From Acidobacteriota bacterium (lineage in GTDB: Bacteria > Acidobacteriota > UBA6911 > RPQK01 > CBDAPI01), in assembly GCA_965205615.1 (NCBI GenBank), contig CBDBHK010000033.1, positions 102,822 through 166,821 of the forward strand: DNA of 64,000 bases. Direction: 5' to 3'. The notes under the pieces are model-generated. The model saw only the letters and a list, made by a program, of their open reading frames with translations, was not told the DNA's origin and did no database searches. Made by a program: the position numbers and the translations under genes. Positions 86 to 63,407 of the stretch are shown piece by piece. Position 1 is the stretch's first letter. The number at the start of each line of letters is the position of its first letter.

Positions 86-1207
86 ATGAGGAATGTCGGG
101 TTAATGGTTAGCAACCGTCGAAAATTCCTCGCGAACTCAATTGCGGGCTTTGGCCTGTTGGCGGGAGCAAGCCGATTACTAGGCCAGGCTTTTGACCACG
201 CCATCATTGGCAGCTACACCAGCATCCCGGGGTACGGCTTGGACCAAGCCATCGAACTCATTCGGCAACTAGGATTCCAAACAATTGAAATGCATCCAAT
301 GGGTGTAGCGGAGCCAAGACCGGGCCTTTCTCCGGGCTTCCAGTTCGATCGCCTGAGCGAGGAAGAAAGACGCAAGATCAAATCTGCTGTGGCAGGCTTT
401 CGCCATGTTTCAATTGAAATGCATCCAATGGGTGTAGCGGAGCCAAGACCGGGCCTTTCTCCGGGCTTCCAGTTCGATCGCCTGAGCGAGGAAGAAAGAC
501 GCAAGATCAAATCTGCTGTGGCAGGCTTTCGCCATGTTTCCACTCATTTGCCCTTTGCCGATCTGCACTGTTTCTCTGCCTATGAGCCGATTGCGGAATT
601 CTCTGTCAAACAGATCGACATTGCACTGAAGGCGAGTGCCTACATTGGCGCGGAGGTCGCGACCATCCATGCACAGGCGCCTCGGCAGCAGACCCTGGAG
701 CAGATTTGGCCTGTCATGCTCGAACGTTTCCGACGCTGGGGGGACATTGCAAAAGAGGCAGGCTTGCGACTGGCAATTGAAACCGGTTACCCCCGCTCGG
801 TGCGTGATTATGTCAGGCTGATCCAGGGAATCGACCACGAATCCGTCGGGGCCACCATTGATGTCGGCCATCAGGGCGGCTACGCCGAATTGGTCAGCAG
901 GGTCAGGCCGGAGGAGCGGGGAACCCCCAAAGGGATCAAGGCCTACAACGATGTCACTCATGAAATCATAGATCGGTTGGGCCCGAAGGTATTCCACTTC
1001 CACGTGCACGACATCGAGCCGGACACATGGGAGGAACACAAGCCGCTTTACTACGGGTTCGTAGACTACCCGCGCCTTCTCAGAAAGCTGCGCGAAATCC
1101 GCTACACCGGCCTGCTTGTGTTCGAACTCGTCGGACCCGCCTCGGAAAGAAGCAAACACCTGGCCGACAGCAAACGGAAACTGGAAGAATACCTTGCCGA
1201 AGCCTGA
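86..1207 (+). CDS. Tat-signal sugar phosphate isomerase/epimerase-like (xylose-isomerase-like TIM barrel) family protein; contains an internal 43-aa tandem duplication
   Basis: 373-aa ORF. N-terminus has a twin-arginine motif (SNRRKFLANS) followed by a hydrophobic stretch. Metal-binding-like HxH/E/D motifs (AIETGY, HFHVHD) typical of the AP-endonuclease-2/xylose-isomerase-like TIM barrel family. Inferred from motifs only. Confidence 0.5.
   Translation: MRNVGLMVSNRRKFLANSIAGFGLLAGASRLLGQAFDHAIIGSYTSIPGYGLDQAIELIRQLGFQTIEMHPMGVAEPRPGLSPGFQFDRLSEEERRKIKSAVAGFRHVSIEMHPMGVAEPRPGLSPGFQFDRLSEEERRKIKSAVAGFRHVSTHLPFADLHCFSAYEPIAEFSVKQIDIALKASAYIGAEVATIHAQAPRQQTLEQIWPVMLERFRRWGDIAKEAGLRLAIETGYPRSVRDYVRLIQGIDHESVGATIDVGHQGGYAELVSRVRPEERGTPKGIKAYNDVTHEIIDRLGPKVFHFHVHDIEPDTWEEHKPLYYGFVDYPRLLRKLREIRYTGLLVFELVGPASERSKHLADSKRKLEEYLAEA
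282..539 (+). repeat. Perfect direct tandem duplication, 2 x 129 bp (282-410 and 411-539), in frame inside the first CDS
   Basis: Read directly in the DNA: the 129-nt unit caattgaaatgcatccaatgggtgtagcgg...ctttcgccatgttt is repeated without mismatch. It encodes IEMHPMGVAEPRPGLSPGFQFDRLSEEERRKIKSAVAGFRHVS twice. Confidence 0.9.
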
Positions 1208-1821
1208 ACCCGTGGGATGGATTGACCTGGGCCTGCCGCCCCACTGGATCCCTCCCGTTCCTCTTCTAAAAACGTCCGCTACTTGCGTCCATCTGATTCT
1301 CCAGTCTACATTCCTCTAAACGGCAGAGCCTGAAGGGCTACACCCTACTTGCCCGTTTCGATGACGTAATGGAGCGTACCTTTGGAGCAGCGGCCTATTG
1401 GCAGCGGCCATTGTTCTTGCAGACCAGCGAACAGCACTCGTTGTCCACTGTGCAGTCTGCATTCTTCGGCTCGCACGAGCAGGCACAATCATCTCTGCAG
1501 TCGAGTTGGTCGGCGCAGTCGGTTCTTCCGTCACAGTCGTTGTCGATGCTGTCGCTACAGGTAAGACCGGAGATTTCTGACTCTATACCTTTTGGCCATG
1601 ACTGTGGCAGTCGTTTCCGAGGTCCAAGTCCCGAAGAACGGGTGCTTTATAGCAGCGGAAGGGGTGCCGGGAGTTACTCCAGGATGGTCACACACGGACC
1701 CTTAGAGTAATTTTTCACACCGTTGCGGCTCAAACCCCTTAGAGACAGTTTGAAGGGAACTTGACAGCCTCTGTCGGAGTGTCGATGCTGGCCGTGGCGT
1801 AACACAAGAGGAGAAACCACC

Positions 1822-2025
1822 ATGGCCACAGACGTTGTTAAACAGATTCGTAGAAGGACTCGCCGGAAGTTTTCCGCCGATGAGAAGAGCCGGATCGTCC
1901 TGGAGGGACTTCGGGGCGAAATCCCGATCACCGAGCTGTGTCGACAACAAGGTATTCAGCCATCGATCTATTACAAATGGTCGAAAGCCTTTCTGGATGC
2001 CGGCAAGAACGGGTTGACTCGGTAA
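1822..2025 (+). pseudogene. IS3-family transposase OrfA (HTH) N-terminal fragment, truncated remnant
   Basis: 67-aa ORF MATDVVKQIRRRTRRKFSADEKSRIVLEGLRGEIPITELCRQQGIQPSIYYKWSKAFLDAGKNGL matches the helix-turn-helix N-terminus of IS3/IS150-type OrfA. It stops after ~65 codons and no orfB follows. Confidence 0.5.
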
Positions 2026-2068
2026 ACGAAGTTGTCACAGTAAGATCTCTTCTTAGAGACCAATGTTG

Positions 2069-3205
2069 CTATGGTGGCGTTGGCTTGGCACTCTCTGCCA
2101 CACGTATGATCGCGTCGAGCTTCTCTTCGATCTCCGAGTCAATTTCTTCGGGTGGCACATACTGAGCGAGCTCATAAAAGCTCTTCTTTCTCATTAGATT
2201 AGGCAGGTCGAGCTTTTTGAAGTACTTCACGAACAGCGGCTCCAGGAAATCGTCGCTCACCTTGGCGTCGGTGCGCCATGGCGAGACTTTACCCAGCGTT
2301 TGCATCGCTCTCTCAACATCCTTGATGGACTCATGCATCGCGCGCATGCGCCGGTCGACTTCAGTGCTTGAAAATAGGGGTCCATGTGCTTCTTGTTCGG
2401 CCGATGCTATTGCATATCTCTCCAGAGTCGCTATGGAGCAAAAATAGTTTTCGATCTCCCGTCGCTCCCAACTTAGATATTCAATGCCATTAATCGTCGG
2501 AGTTTCATCTCCAGAGTGATCGAAAAGAACTGCGGCTTGCAGGTCCGGTAAAGCCTCTTTGAGGCCATAGTAGTGATTTCGGACCGATACCCAATGGCTC
2601 CCTACATAGTGCACAAACGGCCGTTTCAACACTCTATCAGCGTCTTTGTGGTGGAGACGCCTCGCGAACGCTTGCAATATGGCGAGGTCGGTCGAGCCTT
2701 CGAGGTAGAGCACCCATCCAGTCTGTGCTGCTTGACAATAGTGGTCGAAGCCAATCTCATTAAGCGCCTTCCGAACCTGGCTTCCCCGGTCATCAATCCG
2801 GTGCGGCGGCCCCACGAAGGCGATTACCATATCTTTTCTAGCGGCTTCGTTCAGGAGCACCTCGGAGTGGCTTGCAGCGATGATCTGGCTGCGACTCTCG
2901 GAGGCCGCATCTGTGAGCAGTTTATAGATCTCACGCTGGCGAAGAATTTCGAGGTGTGCGTCCGGCTCGTCGAGCAGGAGCACGGCGTCTGGGTTAGCGT
3001 ACATGTACGTCAGAATGAGCAGCGTCTGCTGCAAGCCCCGGCCACTGGAAGAAAGGTCGAGCGTAACCCCATGTTCCTGGTAGGTCATGGTGATCTCGCC
3101 GCGCTCCTTGATATAACGCGCGGGATTGAGCTTCGCCCCGAACAGATCCTCGATCTGCTCGACTAGCTTTTTCCCAATCCTCGGGCTGTTCCTGGTGAAT
3201 ACGGA
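2069..3205 (-). pseudogene. OLD-family ABC-type ATPase + Toprim nuclease (Gabija GajA / PARIS-like class), 5'-truncated (Walker A region missing)
   Basis: The reading frame is open from 3205 (no start codon; ORF finder reports 2069-3088). It contains an ABC Walker-B/D-loop (LLLDEPDAHL) and an H-loop (IIAASHSE). Toprim-like motifs follow: VLYLEGSTD (Glu) and AVLFDHSGDE (DxD). An N-terminal P-loop is absent. The frame ends ~28 bp from the oppositely oriented RT gene. Confidence 0.5.
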
Positions 3206-3232
3206 TTAAAGGTTGGGAAGCTACGGGAGACG

Positions 3233-4659
<1,427 letters not shown>

Positions 4660-4730
4660 ACCACCGCGCCACCTCTCGACTCTACCAGTCGAGTCGTGGA
4701 TCTCTTACGTAAAAGGCCTCGCGGGTATCC

Positions 4731-4857
4731 CGTCCTATCCGAGAATTCGGCCGCGCGTAACCCACTGTGGGAGTTCGACTTGTAAGCGCCTACAATGGCG
4801 GCATGAAGGCCGAAATCCACCAACTTCAAGTGCTACCGGGGGCCAGTCCAGGGGGTC
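4731..4857 (+). repeat. ~127-bp repeat, copy A (about 79% identical to copy B at 5700-5827), 72 nt downstream of the intron-protein stop
   Basis: Pairwise comparison by eye. Shared blocks are cgtcctatccga, taacccactgt, ttcgacttgtaagcgcc, acaatggc, gtgaaggccga, cttcaagtg, taccggg and ccagggggtc, separated by diverged blocks. Confidence 0.7.
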
Positions 4858-5314
4858 CGTCGTGGGGTAAGACCACCTTCCAAGGGTTGTGCCCAAAGTG
4901 TGCCCGCGGGAAACTCACTCCAGCTCACTCCAGCCAAAATAGCGGTTTCGGAGCGACGGAATTTCTGCTTATTTGGAAGGTACTTACAGAACCGGCTTCC
5001 AGGACTTAAAATCCTGTGGGTCGTCGGGTGGGTCGGAGAGACAAGCTAAGTGCCCGGCAATACTCAGAAAGCATGCCTACCTGAACCTGAAATTACCGAA
5101 TACTCAACCAAAGCATTCTCCTGGTCTCCCGGTGTACACGAGCGTATTGATAGCCACCTATATAGCCGCGCGAGGTGAGGGCCAAGGAGAAGCCATGGAG
5201 ACAAATTCATGAGGCCTTTTCATCTCTGGGCAAAGCGGGGCCGGAAGAAGAACAGTCCGGCTCAAAAAGGGAGCAACGCTCACAGCTCGGCGAGTGTGAA
5301 TTGTTGCTGAAGAA

Positions 5315-5662
5315 GTGATCGCTTACGGACTTCGCCGCCATCTTGTGACGCTCGGCACTAATTCTTGGACAGACAAGACAATAAGATCGCGTGCAATGCC
5401 GAAACAACGAAGCGATTTGTTACAGGAGCCTAATTTGGCAAGCGGCATCGATCTCAAGGAGCAGACCCTTGCAATGCTGCAGACGCTGACCCCCAAAGAA
5501 GAACAGATTGTTCGGATGCGCTACGGAATTGACGACGGAATCGAATGCACCCTCGAAGAAGTCGGCCAACAGTTTTCTGCGACTCCTGAGCGGGTCCGTC
5601 AGATCCAGGACCAGGCACTGCGAAAACTGCGCTACGTGTCACTCGGAGAGGAACTACCTTAG
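5315..5662 (+). pseudogene. Orphan sigma-70 (RpoD/RpoS-like) region 4 fragment
   Basis: C-terminal 75 aa (LTPKEEQIVRMRYGIDDGIECTLEEVGQQFSATPERVRQIQDQALRKLR) is a near-canonical sigma-70 region 4.1/4.2. The preceding 40 aa have no sigma homology and regions 1-3 are absent. Confidence 0.5.
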
Positions 5663-13579: not shown

Positions 13580-13630
13580 CAGCCTTCCCGGTTCTGGAAG
13601 CCATTCACTGAAGGAAACCGAGACCTCTAG

Positions 13631-15367
13631 CCCGCATAGATCACCGATTTGGAAATGAAGGTGATTTTGGCAGGCCGGAACGGTTTTCTGAGAGTTTCGC
13701 TATCGATCCGGTCCAGGTCGAGTGATGCGGTGGTGTGGATGGTCGTGAATGGAGCGTTTTTCGGGTTCGGAAGAGCGTGACGGAATGTATTCAGGCAGAG
13801 CTCGGCCTGAGCGATGGAACGATTTCGTTTTTGGGGGCGTTTGATCGGGACAGACCTCAGCAGCGCAGAGGAATGGCCTGGAGGTTTCGAACGACGGCAG
13901 CGAAGACCTCGCTGTAGGGATAGGCTTCCGACATGGAGATCCAGACGTGGCGGACCGTGAGGCGGACCTGGGCGCCGATCTTGAGGAGCTTCAAGCGAAT
14001 CGTCTGACACTGAGCGCGAGCCAGGGGGGTCTGCTTCAGTCCGAGACGACGCAAGGCGTGCATGAGCATGTAGGCGGCGGAGGACAGATACAGCCGGAGT
14101 TGATTGGCGCGCATCGTTGCCGCGCTGGTCCGGTCGGCGAACAGACCCAACTGCTGTTCTTTTATGCGGTTCTCCATGTCGCCCCGCGCACAGTAGAAGT
14201 CTTCGTAGAGCGCGCGGGCCCCCAGGCGTTCCGGCGACAGGGAGGTGACGACGAATCGGGGATTGGCGCCTTTGTCCAGGAACTCGGCCTTGCCGACGAC
14301 GCGTCGCTCCGAGGTCCAACTGTGGCGAGTCCGGTAGCGGAAATCCTTGAACACCCGCGCCGGTCGCCCGGTGGCGTTGAACTCGGCTTCGGCCTGAGTC
14401 ATCGCTTCGGCGCTCTCTGACTTGAGCCGATCATTGTTGGCCAACCCCATCACGTAATCCACGTGATGGTCTTCACACCAGCGGAGCAAGTCATCCCGGC
14501 AAAAGCCCGAGTCGGCCCGGATGACGATCGAGACCTCCGGCCAGCTCTGCCGAATCCGGCCGACGATCCGTTCCAGTTCCTCCACCGATCCCGCGGCCCC
14601 ATCGATATTGGAACACCGCAACCGGGCGCACAGCAGATGCTCCCCCGAGAAGATGTACAGCGGGAGATAACAGTAGTGGCGGTAGTAACCGTGAAAGAAC
14701 CGGCCTTCCTGCTGGCCATGGATCGGGTCGTCGGTCGCATCCAGATCCAGCACCATCTCCTCGGGCGCCGATTCGTGGGACTCCACGAAGGCATCCACCA
14801 TCCAGCCGTCGATCCGGTCCGGGTCCATCGCGATCTTCTTGTACCGCTCCTGCTCATCGACCTCGGCGCCGGTCAACTCCAACCGGTTCAGCGTACACCT
14901 GCCCGCCAGCGCCTTCCCCCGATCTGAGGCCTGCCGCCGCCTCTCCCCCAACGGATCGGCCTTATTCACCGCCACCGCCAGCATCGGATCGGTGCGCAAC
15001 TGATCATGATCGTTCAGATCCTCGTACCCCAGACAGAGTCCGTAGATGCGCTGCCCCAACAACTCCTCGACCGTGTGTTCGATCAACCGCGGATCCCGGT
15101 GATCCCTGAAACACTCAGCCAGTCCGGCGATCAGACCCGTCCCCCTCTCGACCTCTCGCAACAGCAGCACCCCTGCATCGGAGGTGATCTTCCCGCCGTC
15201 GAACCGCGCCTTCACTTTGCGTTGAAATAGTCCGTGAAATTCGAACCTGGCTTGTTTACACTCTGTTCTCATAAGGACCGCCTCCGTTTGCGTGTGAAAA
15301 CGTTCATTCAAAACGCTTTATACCAAACAGGGCGGCCTTTTCAGGTCCCATCGGTGAGAAATGGCGG
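13631..15367 (-). mobile_element. IS1380-family insertion sequence, copy 1 (intact transposase), 4-bp CTAG target duplication
   Basis: Ends: cccgcatagatcaccgat (13631-13648) and its 13/18-matching inverted partner at 15350-15367. Flanked by ctag on both sides (13627-13630 and 15368-15371). Near-identical to the copy at 55941-57664. Confidence 0.75.
13857..15311 (-). CDS. IS1380-family DDE transposase (DDE_Tnp_1_4-like)
   Basis: 484-aa ORF. N-terminal RFDGGKITSDAGVLLLREVERGTGL is characteristic of IS1380-family transposases. DDE region and C-terminal ARGDMENRIKEQ motif present. Probable true start at MRTECKQ (15272). Confidence 0.75.
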   Translation of the reverse strand: MNERFHTQTEAVLMRTECKQARFEFHGLFQRKVKARFDGGKITSDAGVLLLREVERGTGLIAGLAECFRDHRDPRLIEHTVEELLGQRIYGLCLGYEDLNDHDQLRTDPMLAVAVNKADPLGERRRQASDRGKALAGRCTLNRLELTGAEVDEQERYKKIAMDPDRIDGWMVDAFVESHESAPEEMVLDLDATDDPIHGQQEGRFFHGYYRHYCYLPLYIFSGEHLLCARLRCSNIDGAAGSVEELERIVGRIRQSWPEVSIVIRADSGFCRDDLLRWCEDHHVDYVMGLANNDRLKSESAEAMTQAEAEFNATGRPARVFKDFRYRTRHSWTSERRVVGKAEFLDKGANPRFVVTSLSPERLGARALYEDFYCARGDMENRIKEQQLGLFADRTSAATMRANQLRLYLSSAAYMLMHALRRLGLKQTPLARAQCQTIRLKLLKIGAQVRLTVRHVWISMSEAYPYSEVFAAVVRNLQAIPLRC

Positions 15368-55940: not shown

Positions 55941-57664
55941 CCCGCATAGATCACCGATAGGACCTGAAAAGGCCGCCCTGTTTGGTATAAAGCGTTTTGA
56001 ATGAAAGACTTCAAAGCCAAACGGAGGCGGCCCTTATGAGAACAGAGTGTAAACAAGACAGGTTCGAATTTCACGGACTATTTCAACGCAAAGTGAAGGC
56101 GCGGTTCGACGGCGGGAAGATCACCTCCGATGCAGGGGTGCTGCTGTTGCGAGAGGTCGAGAGGGGGACGGGTCTGATCGCCGGACTGGCTGAGTGTTTC
56201 AGGGATCACCGGGATCCGCGGTTGATCGAACACACGGTCGAGGAGTTGTTGGGGCAGCGCATCTACGGACTCTGTCTGGGGTACGAGGATCTGAACGATC
56301 ATGATCAGTTGCGCACCGATCCGATGCTGGCGGTGGCGGTGAATAAGGCCGATCCGTTGGGGGAGAGGCGGCGGCAGGCCTCAGATCGGGGGAAGGCGCT
56401 GGCGGGCAGGTGTACGCTGAACCGGTTGGAGTTGACCGGCGCCGAGGTCGATGAGCAGGAGCGGTACAAGAAGATCGCGATGGACCCGGACCGGATCGAC
56501 GGCTGGATGGTGGATGCCTTCGTGGAGTCCCACGAATCGGCGCCCGAGGAGATGGTGCTGGATCTGGATGCGACCGACGACCCGATCCATGGCCAGCAGG
56601 AAGGCCGGTTCTTTCACGGTTACTACCGCCACTACTGTTATCTCCCGCTGTACATCTTCTCGGGGGAGCATCTGCTGTGCGCCCGGTTGCGGTGTTCCAA
56701 TATCGATGGGGCCGCGGGATCGGTGGAGGAACTGGAACGGATCGTCGGCCGGATTCGGCAGAGCTGGCCGGAGGTCTCGATCGTCATCCGGGCCGACTCG
56801 GGCTTTTGCCGGGATGACTTGCTCCGCTGGTGTGAAGACCATCACGTGGATTACGTGATGGGGTTGGCCAACAATGATCGGCTCAAGTCAGAGAGAGCCG
56901 AAGCGATGACTCAGGCCGAAGCCGAGTTCAACGCCACCGGGCGACCGGCGCGGGTGTTCAAGGATTTCCGCTACCGGACTCGCCACAGTTGGACCTCGGA
57001 GCGACGCGTCGTCGGCAAGGCCGAGTTCCTGGACAAAGGCGCCAATCCCCGATTCGTCGTCACCTCCCTGTCGCCGGAACGCCTGGGGGCCCGCGCGCTC
57101 TACGAAGACTTCTACTGTGCGCGGGGCGACATGGAGAACCGCATAAAAGAACAGCAGTTGGGTCTGTTCGCCGACCGGACCAGCGCGCCAATCAACTCCG
57201 GCTGTATCTGTCCTCCGCCGCCTACATGCTCATGCACGCCTTGCGTCGTCTCGGACTGAAGCAGACCCCCCTGGCTCGCGCTCAGTGTCAGACGATTCGC
57301 TTGAAGCTCCTCAAGATCGGCGCCCAGGTCCGCCTCACGGTCCGCCACGTCTGGATCTCCATGTCGGAAGCCTATCCCTACAGCGAGGTCTTCGCTGCCG
57401 TCGTTCGAAACCTCCAGGCCATTCCTCTGCGCTGCTGAGGTCTGTCCCGATCAAACGCCCCCAAAAACGAAATCGTTCCATCGCTCAGGCCGAGCTCTGC
57501 CTGAATACATTCCGTCACGCTCTTCCGAACCCGAAAAACGCTCCATTCACGACCATCCACACCACCGCATCACTCGACCTGGACCGGATCGATAGCGAAA
57601 CTCTCAGAAAACCGTTCCGGCCTGCCAAAATCACCTTCATTTCCAAATCGGTGATCTATGCGGG
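55941..57664 (+). mobile_element. IS1380-family insertion sequence, copy 2 (inverted relative to copy 1; transposase inactivated by 13-bp deletion)
   Basis: Perfect 18-bp terminal inverted repeats cccgcatagatcaccgat (55941-55958) / atcggtgatctatgcggg (57647-57664). Flanks ctaa / ctag. Internal sequence near-identical to copy 1. Confidence 0.8.
55997..57438 (+). pseudogene. IS1380-family transposase with 13-nt deletion (gcaacgatgcgcg missing after 57187) causing frameshift
   Basis: Direct DNA comparison with copy 1: accagcgcg|ccaatc here versus accagcgcg-gcaacgatgcgcg-ccaatc in copy 1. The deletion is flanked by a gcgcg microhomology. The ORF splits into 55997-57259 and 56989-57438. Confidence 0.8.
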
Positions 57665-57667
57665 CTA

Positions 57668-58806
57668 GTGGTGAGACATAGAAGTAACACTATAGTTTCT
57701 TCCAAATGTAAGGCCTCGGATTTTCATTGAGGTAGCTGATGCCCTTCTGCAGCCCCGCTTCGATTTGTGCCGGTGTCCGATAATCGGTGTTCTGCAAGGC
57801 GGTCAGGTGTAGGGTCGCAAAGTAGGATTCGATCAAATTGAGCCAGGAACTATTGGTGGGCGTCCAATGCAGTTGAATTCGCCGGCAGTGCTGGGCCAAG
57901 AATTTGCGGACTGGCGGAGCCTTGTGTGGGCGCTCAGATTGTCCAGAATGAGATGGATTCGCCCTTCGGGCCACTCCCGCAGGACCACCTCCTGCAGAAA
58001 GGCCCGACAGTTGTCGCTGTTTTTGTTGGGAGTTGAGCGGCCCACGGCCCGACCGGTGTGAGGAGAAAATGCGGCGAAGAACTGCAGAACTCCATGCTTG
58101 CGTTGGTAGCGGTTGGATCGGGGGGCGGCGCGGACTCCCCAGCTGCGCCCGCCCCGCGGAATGGTCTGCAAAGGTCCCAACTCGTCGAAGCAGACCACGG
58201 GGCCATCGTCCGGAGGATGCCGATAGAGCCGGATTATGGCGTTTTTTTTACTTCGTAGTCCGGGTCGGTACTCCGGCACCAGCTTTGACCGGTCAGAAAA
58301 CGCAGCCCATGGCGATGAAGAATGCGCCGGATGGTCTCGCGGCTCAGCACCTCTTCTTGGGCGCGCAGGTAGCCTTCCAGCTTGATCAGCGACCAGGTGG
58401 TAAAGGGCAAACCCAGATCCGGAGGGCGGGAGGTGGCCGCCTCGATCACCCGTGTTTCGGTCTTTTGATCGTAGAGTCGGGGTCGGCCCGGCCGCGGGAG
58501 TCCCAGCAGACGAGGCAATCCCTCGCTCTGGAAACGCTTGGCCCATGCGTGGGCGTTGGTGTAATGCAGACCCGTGATTACAGAAGCTTGCGCGAGGTTG
58601 TAGCCTGCCGCCAAAAGCCAGATCAAGCGACATCGGCGAAAAACCGAAGCGGAAGTCTTTTCGGCCCTCAGCAGACGTTGCAGTTCGAGCAGTTCGTCCG
58701 CCGCGAGGGATCGCAGTGGAAACCGTTTGTTGGCCATTGACTGCGATCATACTATGCGGCCTCTTTTCAGGCAATTAAATATAGTAGTATTATGTGTCAC
58801 GCCACT
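57668..58806 (-). mobile_element. IS630 (Tc1/mariner)-family insertion sequence, TA-flanked, transposase frameshifted
   Basis: Imperfect terminal inverted repeats gtggtgagacatagaagtaacactatag (57668-) and ctatagtagtattatgtgtcacgccac (-58806). TA on both flanks (57666-57667; 58807-58808). 1139 bp. Confidence 0.65.
57690..58737 (-). pseudogene. IS630-family DDE transposase, split over three reading frames
   Basis: HTH N-terminus (58234-58737: RCRLIWLLAAGYNLAQASVITGLHYTNAHAWAKRF). DDE core (57833-58774 frame). C-terminus (57690-57974: WLNLIESYFATL). At least two frame changes. Confidence 0.65.
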
Positions 58807-59367: not shown

Positions 59368-59421
59368 TGGAGTTCCCCCGGTTTCGTGGACACCTAATCC
59401 TTTGGGAGAATGGAGGACACG

Positions 59422-59736
59422 ATGCCAAGAACAAGACGAGCTTATCCACCCGAGTTTCGCCAGCAGATAGTCGAGCTTCATCGAGCCGGGCGCAGCCCCG
59501 GTGAGCTGGCCCGAGAGTTTGAACCCAACGAACAGACGATCCGCAACTGGATCGCCCAGGCAGACCTGGATGAAGGCCGTCGTAGAGACGGCCTGACGAC
59601 GGTAGAACGAGCCGAGCTGCGGAAGTTGCGCAAAGAAAATAGGCAGCTGAGGGTTGAGCGGGAAATATTGGCAAAAGCCGCGGCCTGGTTCGCACGGGAG
59701 AGCGATCCGATTTCCAAGAAGTCTTCAGGTTCGTGA
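59422..59736 (+). CDS. IS3-family transposase OrfA (HTH + leucine zipper)
   Basis: MPRTRRAYPPEFRQQIVELHRAGRSPGELAREF...LRKLRKENRQLRVEREILAKAAAWFARE. Stop overlaps the orfB ATG (ATGA). Confidence 0.7.
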   Translation: MPRTRRAYPPEFRQQIVELHRAGRSPGELAREFEPNEQTIRNWIAQADLDEGRRRDGLTTVERAELRKLRKENRQLRVEREILAKAAAWFARESDPISKKSSGS

Positions 59737-60121
59737 AAGTGAATCAGGCCGACTATCCAATCACCACCATGTGCCGTTTGCTGGGTGTCTCCACCAGTGG
59801 CTACTACGCGTGGGTCGATCGCGGACCTTCGACTCGCGATGAAGCGAATGCTCGTCTTCTGGAAACAATCAACGGGATCCACCAGCAAAGTCGTCGGACC
59901 TATGGAGCTCCCCGCATTACGGCGGAACTTCGAGAGGAAGGTCACCTGGTGGGCAAAAACCGGGTGGCCCGACTGATGAAAGTCGCCGGCATTGAAGGCG
60001 TTAGCCGCAGACGCAAGACACGCACGACCCTGAGAGGCCAAGACAGCCGTCCGGCTCCGGATCTGGTGGAGCGAAACTTCCAGGTCAGCCGCCCCAACCG
60101 ACTGTGGGTTGCAGACATCAG

Positions 60122-60742
60122 TGTGCCGCAGCAAGCGGCGTGAGAGATGGGAGTAGGCCTCCCGCAACCGGCTTGCAGGAGCAGGTTGCAAACCACCGTA
60201 AGTGGCTGTGGTCAAAAGCCGCGGTCGTGAGCGTTACGGAAAAGGTGCTCTAGAAGCATCAGGTGTGGATCAGGAAGACGAACACAAGTGAACCACCGTT
60301 CAAGTGCCGAAAGGACGAGATGGTGTCGAAACCGGGGAGTTGATGTTGCCCCGGGACGAATCTGGCGGAAACCTGTCTACTGGCCAGGTGGCACCCGGCA
60401 TAGAGGTGGCGTGAGCTTGATCTGGGCTCTCATGTTGAACTGCGGGAACCTGGAGCAACGATGCTAAGAGAAAGGCACAAGCAGAGAACCTGCGAGGCCG
60501 ACAGTATCGAAGCGTTGCCCAGGGGCGGACAAGCTCGTAGTAGCGATGAGGCTGTCGTAATGGCAGCGGAGCGAAGGGGCTTGGTCACTCGGCTACAGAC
60601 AAGCGGCCAACTGCTAGGCAGGAGGAGCCCTTGAAAGTAGCAAAGCCATTTTGTGGCTTGAGTGATAGGAGCCGGATGAGCTGAGAGGTTCACGTCCGGT
60701 TCTTGGAGGGGCTGGGGGTGAGACTCCCCCGGCCTACTCAAC
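60122..60742 (+). mobile_element. ORF-less group II intron (621 nt) inserted in IS3-A orfB
   Basis: 5' GUGUG (60122-60126). 3' end ...AAC (60742). Domain V gagccggatgagctgagaggttcacgtccggttct (60669-60703) with AGC triad, G-U pair, AC bulge and GAGA tetraloop. Domain VI hairpin ggggctggggg-tgagact-cccccggcc with bulged A 60736, 7 nt from the 3' end. Candidate EBS1 TGATGT (60351-60356, in a ccgggg/ccccgg hairpin loop) complementary to the last 6 exon nt ACATCA. No RT ORF inside. Confidence 0.75.
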
Positions 60743-60978
60743 CGTACGTGCCGAGTTGGGCAGGTTTCGTCTACCTGGCCGTAGTGGTCGACGCTTTCAG
60801 TCGTCGAGTGGTCGGCTGGTCGCTCAGAAATGATCTCAAGACCCGGCTAGTGACCGATGCCCTGCAAATGGCACTTCAAGAGCGTGAATCCGACGGGGTG
60901 ATCCATCACTCGGACCAGGGGACGGAACGTGTCAACAACTTTGAGACACTTTGGTGAATAAATTACTGTAGTTTCATC

Positions 60979-61977
60979 TCAAAAGTTCTCCTTTTCGGGA
61001 GGGTTGATCCAGACCGCCTCGGGAAGAGGAGGAGGAACGGGGTTGCCGTTGGGAAATCTCTCCGGGAAGAGTGCATGGGCGGCCTCCAATGTTTGGGATC
61101 GATCGCGACGGGTGGTGATGGCGGTGAGGTAGTGCACATCCGCGGGAGTGTGCAGGCCGATACCCGAATGGCGATGGTCGCGGTTATACCAATCGAAGAA
61201 ATCCCGACAGAAGTCTCTGGCTTGCTGAATGGTGCCGAAACGAGCCGGGAATTCGGGACGGTACTTGAGGGTCTTGAATTGGGATTCCGAGTAGGGATTG
61301 TCGTCACAGACATGAGGCCGAGAGTGAGACTTGGTGACTCCCAGATCGGCCAGTAGCAAGGCCAGTGCTTTGGAACTCATCGACGAGCCACGATCGGCAT
61401 GCAGGGTGAGACCACCCGCTACGATCTCCTGCTTGGAGTAGCTCTGGGCGATCAAGACCTTGGCCAGGCGGGAGCTTTCCTGGGTGGCCACCATCCAGCC
61501 CACCACATAGCGGCTGAAGATGTCCAGGATCACGTAGAGGTAGTAATAGCTCCATTTGACGGGCCCCTTCAGCTTGGTGATGTCCCACGACCAGCATTGG
61601 TTCGGGCCGGTGGCCAGAAGTTCCGGCTTGGAGTATTGGGGATGGCGGCGCTGGCGACGGCGTTCTCTAACTTCCAGACGTTTGGCCAGAATGCGGTACA
61701 TGGTTCGAATCGAGCACAAGTATCGCCCTTCGTCCAGCAGCTCCGCCCATACGGCGGCAGGAGCTTTGTCGATAAACTGTCGGCTGTGCAGGACCTCCAC
61801 AACGGCTTCCCTTTCGGGCGGGCTCAAGGCGCGTGGGGATGCGGCCCGAGGCCGAGGATCCAGCGCCGGCCGTTCGCGCCGAAGTTTCTCCCGATACAGA
61901 CTCGATGGCGGCAGATCCAGAGCCTGACAGCCGGCACGGACTCCGTGGGATTGTGAGAATCGCAAAGCTTCGTCCAT
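60979..61977 (-). CDS. IS3-B transposase OrfB (rve integrase core, DDE)
   Basis: 332 aa. WSWDITK (D), HADRGSSMSS (D), CDDNPYSESQFKTLK (E) with the conserved K/R. C-terminal HRHSGIGLHTPADVH. Confidence 0.7.
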   Translation of the reverse strand: MDEALRFSQSHGVRAGCQALDLPPSSLYREKLRRERPALDPRPRAASPRALSPPEREAVVEVLHSRQFIDKAPAAVWAELLDEGRYLCSIRTMYRILAKRLEVRERRRQRRHPQYSKPELLATGPNQCWSWDITKLKGPVKWSYYYLYVILDIFSRYVVGWMVATQESSRLAKVLIAQSYSKQEIVAGGLTLHADRGSSMSSKALALLLADLGVTKSHSRPHVCDDNPYSESQFKTLKYRPEFPARFGTIQQARDFCRDFFDWYNRDHRHSGIGLHTPADVHYLTAITTRRDRSQTLEAAHALFPERFPNGNPVPPPLPEAVWINPPEKENF

Positions 61978-62477
61978 CAGCTCTCGTCTCCGTTCTCTTC
62001 GCTGCTCGCCAGAGAGATTCCCAACAGTTGCGAGACTTTTTTTTGGAGATCCAGCATGGCTTCAAACTTCTCGAGCTTGCGTTTCAGCTTCCGATTCTCA
62101 GCCTCCACTTGCCTCAGTTGATGATCCAGAGGATTGACCGGCTTTGCCTTTCGTCCCCGCTTGCGAGGGGTCAATGCCTGCAGCGTTCCGTGCTCGCGTT
62201 GGCGTCGCCAGGTCTGCAGATTCGACCAGTAAAGTCCTTCTCGGCGCAGTAATGCTCCCACTTCGCCCGACTCTTCGCAGCCATCGGCCTGCTCCAGGAC
62301 CCGGAGCTTATAGCGGGCTGAAAACCGGCGACGGGTTGCCTTGGCAGGAACTTCCGGGTCGGGTCGCGGCAACGCCTTCTCGGGCTCGGTCCGTCCCGCA
62401 GCGATTTTGGAGACCTCTCCCCTCCGCTCCGAGGTTTCCAAAATCCTCAGTTTCTTGTCGCTTCTGTTTTCTATCAT
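61977..62477 (-). CDS. IS3-B transposase OrfA
   Basis: 166 aa with HTH and leucine-zipper segments. Ends at an ATGA overlap with orfB. Confidence 0.65.
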   Translation of the reverse strand: MIENRSDKKLRILETSERRGEVSKIAAGRTEPEKALPRPDPEVPAKATRRRFSARYKLRVLEQADGCEESGEVGALLRREGLYWSNLQTWRRQREHGTLQALTPRKRGRKAKPVNPLDHQLRQVEAENRKLKRKLEKFEAMLDLQKKVSQLLGISLASSEENGDES

Positions 62478-62805
62478 TCTGTAATCCAGCTTCTCGCCCT
62501 CTACTCTAATTTAGCCGGGAAGAAGTATCTCACCATTATTGGCACAGAGGGGGACGCAATACACGTCGATCGAGTTCGGGCTGCGCTGCAAGAGAGCCGG
62601 CATCAGACCCTCCATGGGCTCGGTCGGTGACTGTTATGACAACGCGCTGTGTGAGAGCTTTTTTGCCTCTCTGGAGTGTGAACTGATCGACCGGCACAGC
62701 TTCCGCAGCAAGCTGCAGGCCAGGCTTGCTGTCTTTGACTACATCGAGGGCTTTTTACAACCCTCACAGGCGGCACTCGTCACTGGACTATCTGTCGCCG
62801 ATCAA

Positions 62806-63407
62806 CTATGAATCGAGGCACTCAGATGTGGCTTGATTCGAAAGCCGTAAACTGTCCACAAAAGTGGGGTAACTGCACTTTACGTTACCGCTATGCTTGT
62901 CGTCATCCGTCACCCGGAAGCCTACCGGATGTTTTTTCGGCGGTTCGGGCGGCTCCAGTAACCCTTGGATGTGCTCGAAGAGGATGCCGATTGCCTGGTC
63001 GTGCTGGGCGACCTTGCGGGCCAGTTCCTCATTGGTCGCCAGCATCCGGCGGAGCCGGACGAAGGTCCGCATGATCGCGACATTCACCTGTAGGCGATCT
63101 TGCTACGAAGGATGCCTGAGAGCATCGCCACGCCTTGCTCCGTGAATGCATAGGGTGCGTAGCGTCGCCCACCCCAACTTGAGGTGCCAGTTTGGCTTCT
63201 CAAGTTGTCGAACTCTTCCTTGGTTAGTTGAAAGGCGAAATCCTCCGGGAAGCGGTCAAGGTTGCGCTTCATGGCCCGAACCAGCGCTCCGGTCTCGACG
63301 TGATAGAGTTCGGCCAGATCGGCATCGAGCATGATGCTTTCGCCGCGGATTACGTAGATCTGCGTGGCGATGCGTTCGATCGGAATGACGCTTTTCTCCC
63401 TGGCCAT
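62806..63407 (-). pseudogene. ORF6N-domain (KilA-N-like) protein, frameshifted (~63085), with its 3' end overlapped by the IS3-A terminus
   Basis: N-part [65 protein letters not shown]...[22 protein letters not shown] (63084-63407). It continues in another frame as NVAIMRTFVRLRRMLATNEELARKV...PKKHPVGF (62806-63087). Confidence 0.55.

What the first reader, a model, noticed from the sequence alone, without database searches (positions are those of the whole stretch)
60122..60742. Compact 621-nt ORF-less group II intron interrupting an IS3 transposase gene
The insertion begins GUGUG and ends AAC. It has a textbook domain V (gagccggatgag-ctgagagg-ttcacgtccggttct: AGC triad, G-U wobble, AC bulge, GAGA loop). 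Domain VI has a bulged adenosine (60736) 7 nt from the 3' end. A hairpin-loop hexamer TGATGT (60351-60356) complements the last six exon nucleotides ACATCA (EBS1-IBS1). Removing exactly 60122-60742 restores the conserved IS3 OrfB sequence ADITYVPSW in frame. Bacterial group II introns without an intron-encoded protein are uncommon and must be mobilised in trans. A related but frameshifted RT/maturase gene sits 56 kb away at 3233-4659.
Basis: seen in the sequence. Interest (0 to 1): 0.7.

Follow-up and report, generated by a model that had tools for sequence, protein, structure and literature searches.

The report
ORF-deleted group II intron in IS3
This is a real self-splicing-type (group II) intron that has lost its own reverse-transcriptase gene by one clean 1,215-base deletion and sits inside a jumping-gene (IS3) transposase; it is a well-documented kind of element rather than a new one.

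Summary
The intron is 60121-60742 (622 nt, not 60122/621), and the EBS1 hexamer is at 60341-60346 (not 60351-56). Rfam hits domain I (111.9 bits) and domains V-VI (59.6 bits). Intron-less copies of the same IS3 read ...GACATCA|CGTACG..., proving the boundaries. D1-D3 fold with 70 of 131 pairs showing compensatory changes across 20 relatives.

It is a deletion derivative of a 1,837-nt full-length intron: identical apart from 4 harmless substitutions and an in-frame loss of 405 codons of a 422-aa RT/maturase with no endonuclease domain. The Shine-Dalgarno, start codon and domain IVa arm are kept. The parent occupies the same IS3 site in metagenome contigs and has about 48 copies in one MAG. The IEP is 51% identical to E.c.I2, so the lineage is probably class D, the RmInt1 class.

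The RT at 3233-4659 is not the cognate helper: 31% identity, frameshifted, no detectable domain I. This IS3 copy is also broken by a nested IS and a frameshift.

ORF loss recurs in this lineage, which habitually occupies IS transposase genes. Whether the ORF-less copies spread by retrohoming in trans or by riding IS3 transposition is unresolved. EBS2 is unresolved. This is a new member of a known kind.

The parts
60121..60742 (+). ORF-less (deltaORF) group II intron, 622 nt, GUGUG...CUCAAC
   Evidence: Rfam hits. Only this excision restores orfB. Exact empty sites in L001/L004/L005. Equals the 1,837-nt full-length intron minus 1,215 nt.
60114..60120 (+). IBS1 (GACAUCA, exon -7..-1)
   Evidence: Pairs with EBS1. 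95-96% of cells are paired over 33 intron/target pairs, with compensatory changes.
60126..60445 (+). Domain I (intron positions 6-325)
   Evidence: RF01999 at 60149-60264, 111.9 bits. RNAalifold consensus and covariation on 20 relatives.
60290..60294 (+). EBS2 candidate A (GAACC): canonical class D position about 50 nt 5' of EBS1
   Evidence: Family-conserved GUGAAC(C/U). Resembles the experimentally defined RmInt2 EBS2 GAACU (PMC4615759). 5/5 bp with the MAG's main target and 4/5 with the IS3 target. Not proven.
60341..60347 (+). EBS1 (UGAUGUU) in the terminal loop of hairpin 60332-60354
   Evidence: Best-pairing segment of all of domain I against exon -7..-1. Covariation in L075, L121, L127, L157, L112.
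60371..60375 (+). EBS2 candidate B (ACCUG) in the loop of hairpin 60360-60389
   Evidence: Pairs 5/5 with exon UGGGU (-16..-12) in 6 of 12 independent targets. Both sides are invariant, so there is no covariation. Not proven.
60446..60526 (+). Domain II (intron 326-406)
   Evidence: Consensus structure with compensatory pairs.
60527..60586 (+). Domain III (intron 407-466)
   Evidence: Consensus structure with compensatory pairs.
60584..60667 (+). Domain IV remnant: basal stem, DIVa arm, and the short hairpin AAGCC-AUUUUGU-GGCUU that replaces the ORF loop
   Evidence: The same Y-shaped fold, with compensatory stem variants, appears in 12 ORF-less family members.
60620..60684 (+). Retained Shine-Dalgarno AGGAGG (60620-25), TTG start (60631-33) and 17-codon remnant ORF MKVAKPF|CGLSDRSRMS*. 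The deletion junction is at 60651|60652.
   Evidence: The full-length IEP starts MKVAKPF... and ends ...GVFPCGLSDRSRMS*. The 1,215 nt = 405 codons were removed in frame, with 1-nt microhomology.
60669..60702 (+). Domain V (34 nt; AGC triad, AC bulge, GAGA loop)
   Evidence: RF00029, 59.6 bits. Invariant in 20 relatives and identical across several phyla.
60706..60739 (+). Domain VI with bulged branch-point A at 60736
   Evidence: RF00029 alignment. Consensus fold with 4 covarying pairs and an unpaired A.
60743..60743 (+). IBS3 (+1 C)
   Evidence: The +1 base is C at nearly all target sites. The partner EBS3 was not identified.
59368..62877 (+). Host IS3-family element. IRs TGGAGTTCCCCC... / ...GGGGTAACTGCA, 3-bp duplication CTT. 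orfA 59410-59736. orfB pieces 59733-60120, 60743-60924 and 62550-62811.
   Evidence: Pfam HTH_Tnp_1, HTH_21 and a full rve domain on the reconstituted OrfB. Boundaries from copies in L001-L010. Extra 1-nt insertion near the orfB 3' end.
60925..62549 (-). Nested second IS3-family element inside the host orfB (orfA 61977-62477, orfB 60979-61977). Approximate ends, flanked by the repeat GGGGACG.
   Evidence: Pfam rve/rve_3/HTH_Tnp_1. Absent from the other deltaORF-bearing IS3 copies L020, L049, L056, L002, L003.
3233..4685 (+). Unrelated relic group II intron: frameshifted RT/maturase (3233-3664 and 3697-4659) and DV-DVI (4532-4685). Not the cognate helper.
   Evidence: RF00029, 45.2 bits. No D1 family hit at E<=1 in 1500-5500. 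31% identity to the cognate IEP. No blastn similarity to the ORF-less intron.

Best explanation
Window 60121-60742 is a non-autonomous group II intron. It is a deltaORF derivative of a 1,837-nt IIB-type intron, most probably class D, whose 422-aa IEP has RT and maturase (X) domains but no endonuclease domain.

One deletion removed codons 8-412 of the IEP from the domain IVb loop. It left an apparently intact ribozyme: domains I-III, V and VI, EBS1 and the branch A. It also left the domain IVa arm with the Shine-Dalgarno and start codon. By analogy with Ll.LtrB, this arm is where the IEP binds.

The intron sits in the sense strand of IS3 orfB, immediately after the first base of the Thr codon in [9 protein letters not shown]. 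I take the Asp here to be the first catalytic residue of the DDE transposase (my own knowledge, not tested). An unspliced transcript therefore cannot make transposase.

Shown: identity, boundaries, structure, the parent-derivative relationship, and multiple copies all sharing one junction.

Inferred: it can still splice and reverse-splice only when the cognate RT/maturase is supplied in trans by a full-length sibling. Such siblings occur at the same IS3 site in the same metagenome sample and in about 48 copies in a related MAG. No such helper is encoded in this window.

This particular copy is a fossil. Its host IS3 is also broken by a nested IS and a frameshift, so splicing here would rescue nothing.
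For: - Rfam RF01999 at 111.9 bits and RF00029 at 59.6 bits.
- Frame restoration only with 60121-60742.
- Exact empty sites in L001/L004/L005.
- L007/L008 carry the same intron (99.8% over positions 1-531) at the same IS3 site with an RT ORF starting at the retained AGGAGG...TTG.
- Full-length copies are 1,837 nt. The deltaORF form equals the full-length form minus exactly 1,215 nt plus 4 substitutions. Three of the four match the family consensus and one turns C-G into U.G.
- The IEP family is 422 aa with RVT_1 and GIIM.
- D1-D3: 131 pairs, 70 with compensatory changes; 98.1% of cells paired against 88.0% in shuffles and 35-42% when slid.
- EBS1-IBS1 was recovered blind as the best-pairing segment, with covariation.
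- Twelve ORF-less relatives keep the same DIV architecture.
- All deltaORF copies in IS3 share one junction.
- Precedents: 17 Thermosynechococcus ORF-less introns with identical DIVb breakpoints are mobilised by related IEPs (PMC2882425). RmInt deltaORF RNAs retrohome when the IEP is supplied from outside DIV (PMC4615759).
Against: - No splicing or mobility data exist.
- No cognate IEP is encoded in the 64-kb window.
- In MAG CBDBGQ01, all four DV-DVI pattern hits are deltaORF copies in IS3 and none is full-length. A helper may therefore be absent from some host genomes.
- Every copy with this junction is at the one IS3 site. There is no direct sign that it retrohomed after the deletion.
- EBS2 and EBS3 partners are not established.
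- Several sibling copies are themselves disrupted by other mobile DNA (L003, L006, L013), as expected for decaying rather than maintained elements.
- Class D is assigned only from 51% IEP identity to E.c.I2, without a phylogeny.
Confidence: 0.85

Rival explanations
1. Hitch-hiker model. After losing its ORF, the intron no longer moves as a retroelement. It multiplies only as cargo of IS3 when the IS transposes, with transposase coming from spliced transcripts or from intact IS3 copies. It is then a splicing-only or inert passenger.
For: - All copies with the shared junction lie at the identical IS3 position in different genomic contexts: window, L002, L003, L010, L013, L020, L049, L056.
- By contrast, near-identical full-length copies occupy at least 12 different targets.
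- MAG CBDBGQ01 shows four deltaORF::IS3 loci and no full-length copy with the pattern.
- Three of those IS3 copies share a private SNP.
- A review states that IEP-less group II introns have lost retromobility (PMC4424553).
Against: - The same pattern arises from retrohoming into the intron's natural homing site.
- Empty and filled IS3 copies co-occur in the same samples.
- One SNP is shared by an empty copy (L004) and a filled copy (L006).
- IS3 haplotypes are too similar to decide.
- ORF-less introns are demonstrably trans-mobilised in Thermosynechococcus (PMC2882425).
Confidence: 0.35
2. The frameshifted RT/maturase at 3233-4659 is, or recently was, the helper for this intron.
For: - It is a group II RT/maturase (RVT_1 + GIIM) in the same 64-kb window.
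- Its domain V shares the GCCGGAUG...CGUCCGGUU lower stem.
Against: - Only 31% identical to the cognate IEP, whereas the real parent's IEP is 98% identical to the remnant context.
- The ORF is frameshifted.
- No domain I is detectable upstream, and the region abuts a truncated ATPase gene.
- No nucleotide similarity between the two introns.
Confidence: 0.03
3. The ORF-less state is ancestral or long-standing: an old independent ribozyme lineage. On this view the ORF-containing copies acquired their ORF, or the two forms merely share ends.
For: ORF-less relatives with the same DIV hairpin and compensatory changes occur in several phyla (L014, L128, L145, L152, L185 and others).
Against: - The window's intron differs from the full-length copies by only 4 of 622 positions, but is about 10-30% diverged from the other ORF-less members. 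The ORF-less forms are therefore polyphyletic and recent.
- The remnant reading frame keeps the IEP's first 7 and last 10 codons.
- L026 is an independent deletion with a different junction.
Confidence: 0.03
4. It is not a functional intron at all: either a chance resemblance or a decayed pseudo-intron.
For: - This host IS3 copy is dead (nested IS, frameshift).
- Sibling copies are hit by other insertions.
Against: - Rfam scores are far above the gathering thresholds.
- Boundaries are exact.
- 99.4% identity to a ribozyme that has about 48 copies at many sites.
- None of the four substitutions is disruptive.
Confidence: 0.05

Closest known systems
Thermosynechococcus elongatus TeI3 ORF-less introns, derived from TeI4 (Mohr, Ghanem & Lambowitz 2010, PMC2882425)
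   Same: - A single deletion in domain IVb removes most of the ORF.
- Breakpoints are identical in all copies.
- N- and C-terminal ORF remnants are visible, and DIVa is retained.
- The copies coexist with full-length siblings whose IEPs act in trans.
   Different: - TeI introns are CL-type IIB with En-containing IEPs. Here the IEP lacks En and is probably class D.
- TeI3 copies sit at many different sites with good EBS/IBS pairing, which shows mobility after the deletion. Here every copy with the junction is at one IS3 site.
- Trans-mobilisation is experimentally shown there and only inferred here.
Class D (IIB3) group II introns: RmInt1/Sr.me.I1 in ISRm2011-2, E.c.I2 in ISEc1, Ma.sp.I3 and Pr.vi.I1 in 'integrase, catalytic region' genes (PMC3552965 Table S1; PMC4615759)
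   Same: - The 1,837-nt size falls in the class range of about 1.8-2.0 kb.
- RT-X IEP without D/En: 422 aa here, against about 401-439 aa for most full-length class members.
- 51% IEP identity to E.c.I2.
- Residence in IS transposase genes.
- EBS3-IBS3 is compatible with G-C (+1 C).
- Engineered deltaORF RNAs of this class retrohome when the IEP is supplied separately.
   Different: - Natural ORF-less class D members are not described in the papers read.
- Class membership here rests on pairwise identity and Rfam family RF01999, not on a phylogeny or the class D C-terminal signature.
- EBS2 is not identified.
E.c.I4 / IntA (class A) in conserved positions of IS3-like transposases IS629, IS911, ISEc16, ISEc31 (PMC3522654; Han 2004)
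   Same: - Group II intron with an En-less IEP.
- Homes into conserved regions of IS3-family transposase genes.
- Proliferates with them, up to 15 copies per genome.
   Different: - A different ORF class (A).
- Probably not recovered by blastn with our ribozyme: at most 4 places per genome against the 15 copies reported in IAI39, and only two hits were inspected.
- Whether the insertion site is the same D-x-T|Y codon was not tested.
- E.c.I4 copies are ORF-containing.
IStrons (group I intron + IS200/605 chimeras, PMC4227781)
   Same: A self-splicing ribozyme physically coupled to a DNA transposon, so that the ribozyme can travel with the IS.
   Different: - IStrons are group I ribozymes fused at the end of the IS and render IS insertions harmless to host genes.
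- Here a group II ribozyme lies inside the transposase gene.
- No evidence yet shows the pair behaves as one unit.

Membership tests
Group II intron (ribozyme) | 5' GUGYG and 3' AY termini at exact exon boundaries | tested here: met
   GUGUG at 60121 and ...CUCAAC at 60742. Empty sites in L001/L004/L005 join precisely.
Group II intron (ribozyme) | 34-nt domain V with AGC triad, 2-nt bulge and tetraloop | tested here: met
   RF00029 at 59.6 bits against a gathering score of 40. Invariant in 20 relatives.
Group II intron (ribozyme) | Domain VI with a bulged branch-point adenosine 7-8 nt from the 3' end | tested here: met
   A60736 is unpaired in the consensus fold. The helix has 4 covarying pairs.
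Group II intron (ribozyme) | Six-domain architecture with a conserved domain I | tested here: met
   RF01999 at 111.9 bits. 131 consensus pairs in D1-D3, 70 with compensatory changes; shuffle and slide controls. DIV fold.
Group II intron (ribozyme) | EBS1-IBS1 pairing with the 5' exon | tested here: met
   Intron 221-227 pairs with exon -7..-1 in 95-96% of cells over 33 pairs. Compensatory changes occur in 5 relatives.
Group II intron (IIA/IIB) | EBS2-IBS2 pairing | tested here: inconclusive
   No covarying segment was found against -13..-8. There are two candidates, GAACC 60290-94 and ACCUG 60371-75. The ranking test does not discriminate between them.
Group II intron (IIB) | EBS3-IBS3 (coordination loop) pairing with 3' exon +1 | tested here: inconclusive
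   The +1 base is C at nearly all sites, compatible with a G EBS3 as in RmInt1. The partner nucleotide was not identified.
Group II intron (ribozyme) | Tertiary contacts epsilon, lambda, gamma, zeta, kappa | not tested
   These were not individually mapped. Only the overall conservation of the Rfam D1 core was assessed.
Group II intron (ribozyme) | Splicing via lariat, and reverse splicing | not testable with these tools
   Requires RNA data or biochemistry.
Mobile (autonomous) group II intron retroelement | RT/maturase ORF in domain IV | tested here: not met
   Only a 17-codon remnant remains. The element is therefore non-autonomous.
Class D (IIB3) group II introns | RT-X IEP without D/En domains that groups with class D ORFs | tested here: inconclusive
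   The parent IEP is 422 aa with RVT_1 + GIIM only. It is 51% identical to E.c.I2, a listed class D member. No phylogeny or class D C-terminal motif test was done.
ORF-less intron dependent on a related IEP in trans | Closely related IEP-encoding intron in the same genome | tested here: inconclusive
   Full-length siblings occur at the same IS3 site in the same sample as a deltaORF copy (JGI 3300047102: L007, L009, L010). None is in this window. None was hit in MAG CBDBGQ01. The source genome was not identified.
IS3 family (host element) | orfA (HTH) and orfB (rve DDE) in overlapping frames, TG...CA inverted repeats, 3-bp duplication | tested here: met
   Pfam HTH_Tnp_1, HTH_21 and a full-length rve match on the reconstituted OrfB. 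IRs and the CTT duplication were read from the sequence. Intact 282-aa OrfB in L001/L005.

The most novel reading that the evidence does not exclude
The deltaORF intron and IS3 may form a group II counterpart of an IStron. On this reading, a ribozyme that has given up retromobility persists and multiplies as cargo inside the transposase gene. It sits at the codons of what I take to be the first catalytic Asp. Transposase production, and therefore transposition of the composite, would depend on splicing, which in turn depends on a maturase supplied by sibling introns. That would be a three-party dependency among mobile elements.

Coupled to this, the lineage seems to have specialised on the conserved D-x-T|Y motif of rve transposases across phyla, and it sheds its ORF recurrently with convergent DIV hairpins.
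Probability: 0.25. Interest if true: 0.55.

Novelty: new member of a known kind. Interest (0 to 1): 0.35.

Why it matters
[quoted passage not shown] Cases where both the parent and the exact deletion are in hand are useful natural experiments on how retroelements become non-autonomous, which is a step in the proposed path towards spliceosomal-type introns.

This locus offers several things:
- A parent/derivative pair differing by one clean 1,215-nt deletion.
- Several independent ORF losses in the same lineage that converge on the same domain IV hairpin.
- A lineage that habitually occupies a conserved D-x-T|Y motif of IS3-type transposases.

For annotation, it shows that 'split' IS3 transposase pseudogenes may hide 0.6-kb ribozymes that ORF-based intron finders miss. 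None of this changes current understanding. It extends known patterns to uncultured lineages: MAGs labelled Acidobacteriota that carry planctomycete-type genes.

Tried and rejected
- A metagenome scan for any short-DIV derivative (DIVa arm, up to 40 nt, then DV) found nothing. The pattern itself is valid. It therefore gave no evidence of deltaORF copies at other targets in that collection.
- IS3 haplotype comparison of empty, deltaORF and full-length-bearing copies showed almost only private SNPs. It cannot separate hitch-hiking from homing.
- A blind scan and a ranking test for EBS2 gave no discriminating signal.
- An exact-protein look-up to identify the window's source genome found nothing on record. 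Look-ups of P0003 and P0010 led only to a sister strain of the CBDEGM MAG.
- The window's own RT (3233-4659) was tested as helper and rejected.
- E.c.I4 was probably not recovered by blastn with our ribozyme, and only two of those hits were inspected. E.c.I4 itself was not retrieved, so identity of the insertion codon is untested.
- L031 and L023 matched only DV-DVI and were not used as full introns. L145 and L185 lack a clear GUGYG start, and L152 is cut by the contig end. All were left out of the whole-intron alignment.
- Simon et al. 2008 (PMC2525955) could not be read.

Full report
**Observation**

GTGTG begins at 60121. Only excision of 60121-60742 (622 nt) restores the IS3 OrfB sequence ...[30 protein letters not shown].... 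Excision of 60122-60742 leaves a frameshift.

The hexamer TGATGT is at 60341-60346, in the loop of hairpin 60332-60354, not at 60351-60356. Rfam's curated models hit at gathering score. RF01999 (group-II-D1D4-2) matches 60149-60264 at 111.9 bits. RF00029 (domains V-VI) matches 60667-60742 at 59.6 bits, ending exactly at the predicted 3' splice site with A60736 bulged. The longest ORF inside the intron is 103 aa, on the opposite strand.

**Exact boundaries from empty sites**

Looking up the exact OrfA protein of the host IS3 returned ten contigs that carry the same IS (over 99% nucleotide identity) in different genomic contexts.
- L001, L004 and L005 are uninterrupted and read ...GCAGACATCA|CGTACGTGCC....
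- L002, L003 and L010 carry the 0.6-kb insertion at that very position. L006 carries an intron at the same site but diverges after position 177, so its form is unknown.
- The reconstituted OrfB gives a complete rve (DDE) domain.

**Origin: a clean ORF deletion**

Contigs L007 and L008 carry the same intron (99.8% over positions 1-531) at the same IS3 site. After position 531 they continue into a reverse-transcriptase ORF, which begins at the AGGAGG-N5-TTG that the window's copy still has.

The IEP family is 422 aa with RVT_1 and GIIM domains and no endonuclease domain. Complete copies are 1,837 nt (L012). The window's intron equals that sequence minus exactly 1,215 nt (405 codons, in frame, 1-nt microhomology) plus four substitutions. 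The remnant ORF reads MKVAKPF|CGLSDRSRMS*, which is the IEP's first 7 and last 10 codons.

Three of the four substitutions restore the family consensus, including A223 in EBS1, which makes a Watson-Crick pair with the IS3 target. The fourth turns a C-G pair into U.G. All 0.6-kb copies in IS3 share the same junction, so they descend from one deletion event.

**Structure**

An alignment of 20 family members (67-99% identical) gives a D1-D3 consensus of 131 pairs:
- 70 pairs have compensatory double changes.
- 98.1% of cells are paired, against 88.0% in shuffles (0 of 500 reach the observed value) and 35-42% when partners are slid.

Domain V is invariant, and domain VI has four covarying pairs and the unpaired A. 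In intron numbering the domains are D1 6-325, D2 326-406, D3 407-466, D4 about 464-547, D5 549-582 and D6 586-619.

Domain IV folds as a Y with three parts:
- a basal stem;
- a DIVa arm carrying the Shine-Dalgarno and start codon;
- a short hairpin, AAGCC-loop-GGCUU, where the ORF loop was.

Twelve ORF-less family members show the same Y. Their hairpin stems vary in a compensatory way (AAACC/GGUUU, GCCGG/CCGGC, AACCC/GGGUU).

**Exon recognition**

I scanned all of domain I against each intron's own 5' exon. Positions 221-227 (window 60341-60347) came out as the best partner of exon -7..-1, with 95-96% of cells paired over 33 distinct intron/target pairs. Compensatory changes occur in L075, L121, L127, L157 and L112. 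The +1 base is C almost everywhere, which is compatible with a G-C EBS3-IBS3 pair as in RmInt1 (PMC4615759).

EBS2 could not be established:
- No segment covaries with -13..-8.
- Near-identical introns at 12 targets nearly all keep GGG(U) around -15..-12.
- Two candidates exist. GAACC (60290-94) is in the canonical position and resembles RmInt2's experimentally defined GAACU. ACCUG (60371-75) has better complementarity.
- The ranking test does not discriminate between them.

I treat it as unresolved rather than failed, because EBS2 also needed selection experiments in TeI4h and RmInt2 (PMC2882425, PMC4615759).

**Family context**

A DV-DVI pattern scan of one genome per species found 56 loci.
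- One MAG (CBDEGM01/OZ250158) holds about 48 full-length copies. About 25 are in an IS1380/IS4-type transposase at ...GFIVT|NMS.... The rest are at unique sites. One independently derived 621-nt ORF-less copy (L026) has a different junction.
- A second MAG (CBDBGQ01) gave four hits. All are the deltaORF form in the IS3, and none is full-length.
- A 34-nt DV scan of metagenomes gave 120 loci. Most are full-length, with D1 to D5 spanning about 1,760 nt. Roughly 7-10 of 100 classifiable loci are ORF-less.
- Nearly all relatives with at least 77% D1 identity sit at the homologous D-x-T|Y-(I/V)...G(F/W)xY site of rve transposases. One of these is the ORF-less L128, and L014, found in the genome scan, occupies the homologous site of another IS3.

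The ORF-less forms are polyphyletic. Ours is 99.4% identical to a full-length copy but only about 70-90% identical to the other ORF-less members.

**The nearby RT**

The RT/maturase at 3233-4659 is frameshifted and only 31% identical to the cognate IEP. It belongs to an intron with a different domain V and no detectable domain I, and it abuts a truncated ATPase gene. The window encodes no cognate IEP.

**State of this copy**

The host IS3 (59368-62877) is also interrupted by a second IS3-family element (about 60925-62549, minus strand). That element is absent from the other deltaORF-bearing copies. The host also has a 1-nt insertion near the orfB 3' end. This IS3 copy is dead regardless of splicing.

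**Mechanism**

Shown: a non-autonomous derivative with an apparently intact ribozyme and a retained DIVa arm.

Inferred: splicing and any retrohoming depend on the 422-aa RT/maturase supplied in trans. This rests on analogy with Thermosynechococcus TeI3/TeI4 and with RmInt deltaORF constructs (PMC2882425, PMC4615759). It also rests on full-length and deltaORF copies co-occurring at the same IS3 site in the same sample.

The main rival is that these copies spread only as cargo of IS3 transposition. All copies with this junction are in the one IS3 site. IS3 haplotypes are too similar to decide. A scan for the junction elsewhere found nothing.

**Comparison with known systems**

- ORF-less bacterial group II introns are 'rare' but known, and nearly always accompany related IEP-encoding introns (PMC4424553).
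- The Thermosynechococcus case matches in almost every anatomical respect (PMC2882425).
- The IEP is 51% identical to that of E.c.I2, which is listed as class D together with RmInt1. The same list includes introns in 'integrase, catalytic region' and IS3/IS911 genes.
- Homing of E.c.I4 (class A) into conserved regions of IS3-family transposases is also on record.

The finding is therefore a new member of a known kind. The most interesting residue is the possible IStron-like dependence between the ORF-less ribozyme and IS3, together with the recurrent, convergent ORF loss in this lineage.

Noticed in passing
window 60925-62549 (minus strand): A second, apparently intact IS3-family element (orfA 61977-62477, orfB 60979-61977) is nested inside the host IS3 orfB. 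It is flanked by the repeat GGGGACG and is absent from the other deltaORF-bearing IS3 copies.
   Followed up: partly
window about 62740-62811: The host IS3 orfB has a 1-nt insertion near its 3' end. The tail reads ...YIEGFLQPSQAALV... instead of ...YIEGFYNPHRRHSSLDYL... as in L003. This is a third lesion in this IS copy.
   Followed up: partly
window 2069-4685: A relic group II intron with a frameshifted RT/maturase (3233-3664 and 3697-4659) and DV-DVI (4532-4685) but no detectable domain I. It directly abuts a 5'-truncated AAA_21 (AbiEii-like) ATPase ORF on the opposite strand (2069-3088).
   Followed up: partly
window 13627-15340 and 55968-57668: Two inverted copies of a roughly 1.7-kb IS encoding a DDE_Tnp_1_4-type transposase. 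The same IS truncates a sibling intron copy in L013.
   Followed up: no
window 86-1207: The 373-aa ORF contains a perfect tandem duplication of about 44 aa (IEMHPMGVAEPRPGLSPGFQFDRLSEEERRKIKSAVAGFRHVS, twice). This may be a real duplication or an assembly artefact.
   Followed up: no
L003:5731-7462; L006 after 6418; L013 about 6468: Sibling copies of the intron are themselves disrupted. L003 has a 1,732-nt element with terminal inverted repeats (GCCCGGATTATG...) and no long ORF at intron position 134. L006 has an unrelated sequence after position 177. L013 is truncated by an IS at about position 130.
   Followed up: partly
L015-L068 (MAG CBDEGM01 / OZ250158.1): About 48 full-length 1,837-nt copies lie in one MAG. 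About 25 are in an IS1380/IS4-like transposase at ...GFIVT|NMS..., and empty copies of that site are also present. The MAG is labelled Acidobacteriota but carries PSCyt1/PSD1/DUF1501 genes, which I associate with Planctomycetota (my own knowledge, not tested).
   Followed up: partly
L026:2873-3493 (minus strand): An independent 621-nt ORF-less derivative of the same intron. It has a different junction (GCCATTTGAGGTT|TGAGTGATAG) at a non-IS3 target. It rebuilds the DIV hairpin from ORF codons 8-10.
   Followed up: partly
L064:225-2672: A SAR324 relative shows one domain I hit followed by two DV-DVI hits about 640 nt apart. This could be a tandem 3' end or a nested fragment.
   Followed up: no
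L012:1223-5327 and L191: Two full-length copies are inserted in opposite orientations about 430 nt apart within one PSCyt/PSD1 gene. The arrangement is conserved in a sister strain.
   Followed up: no
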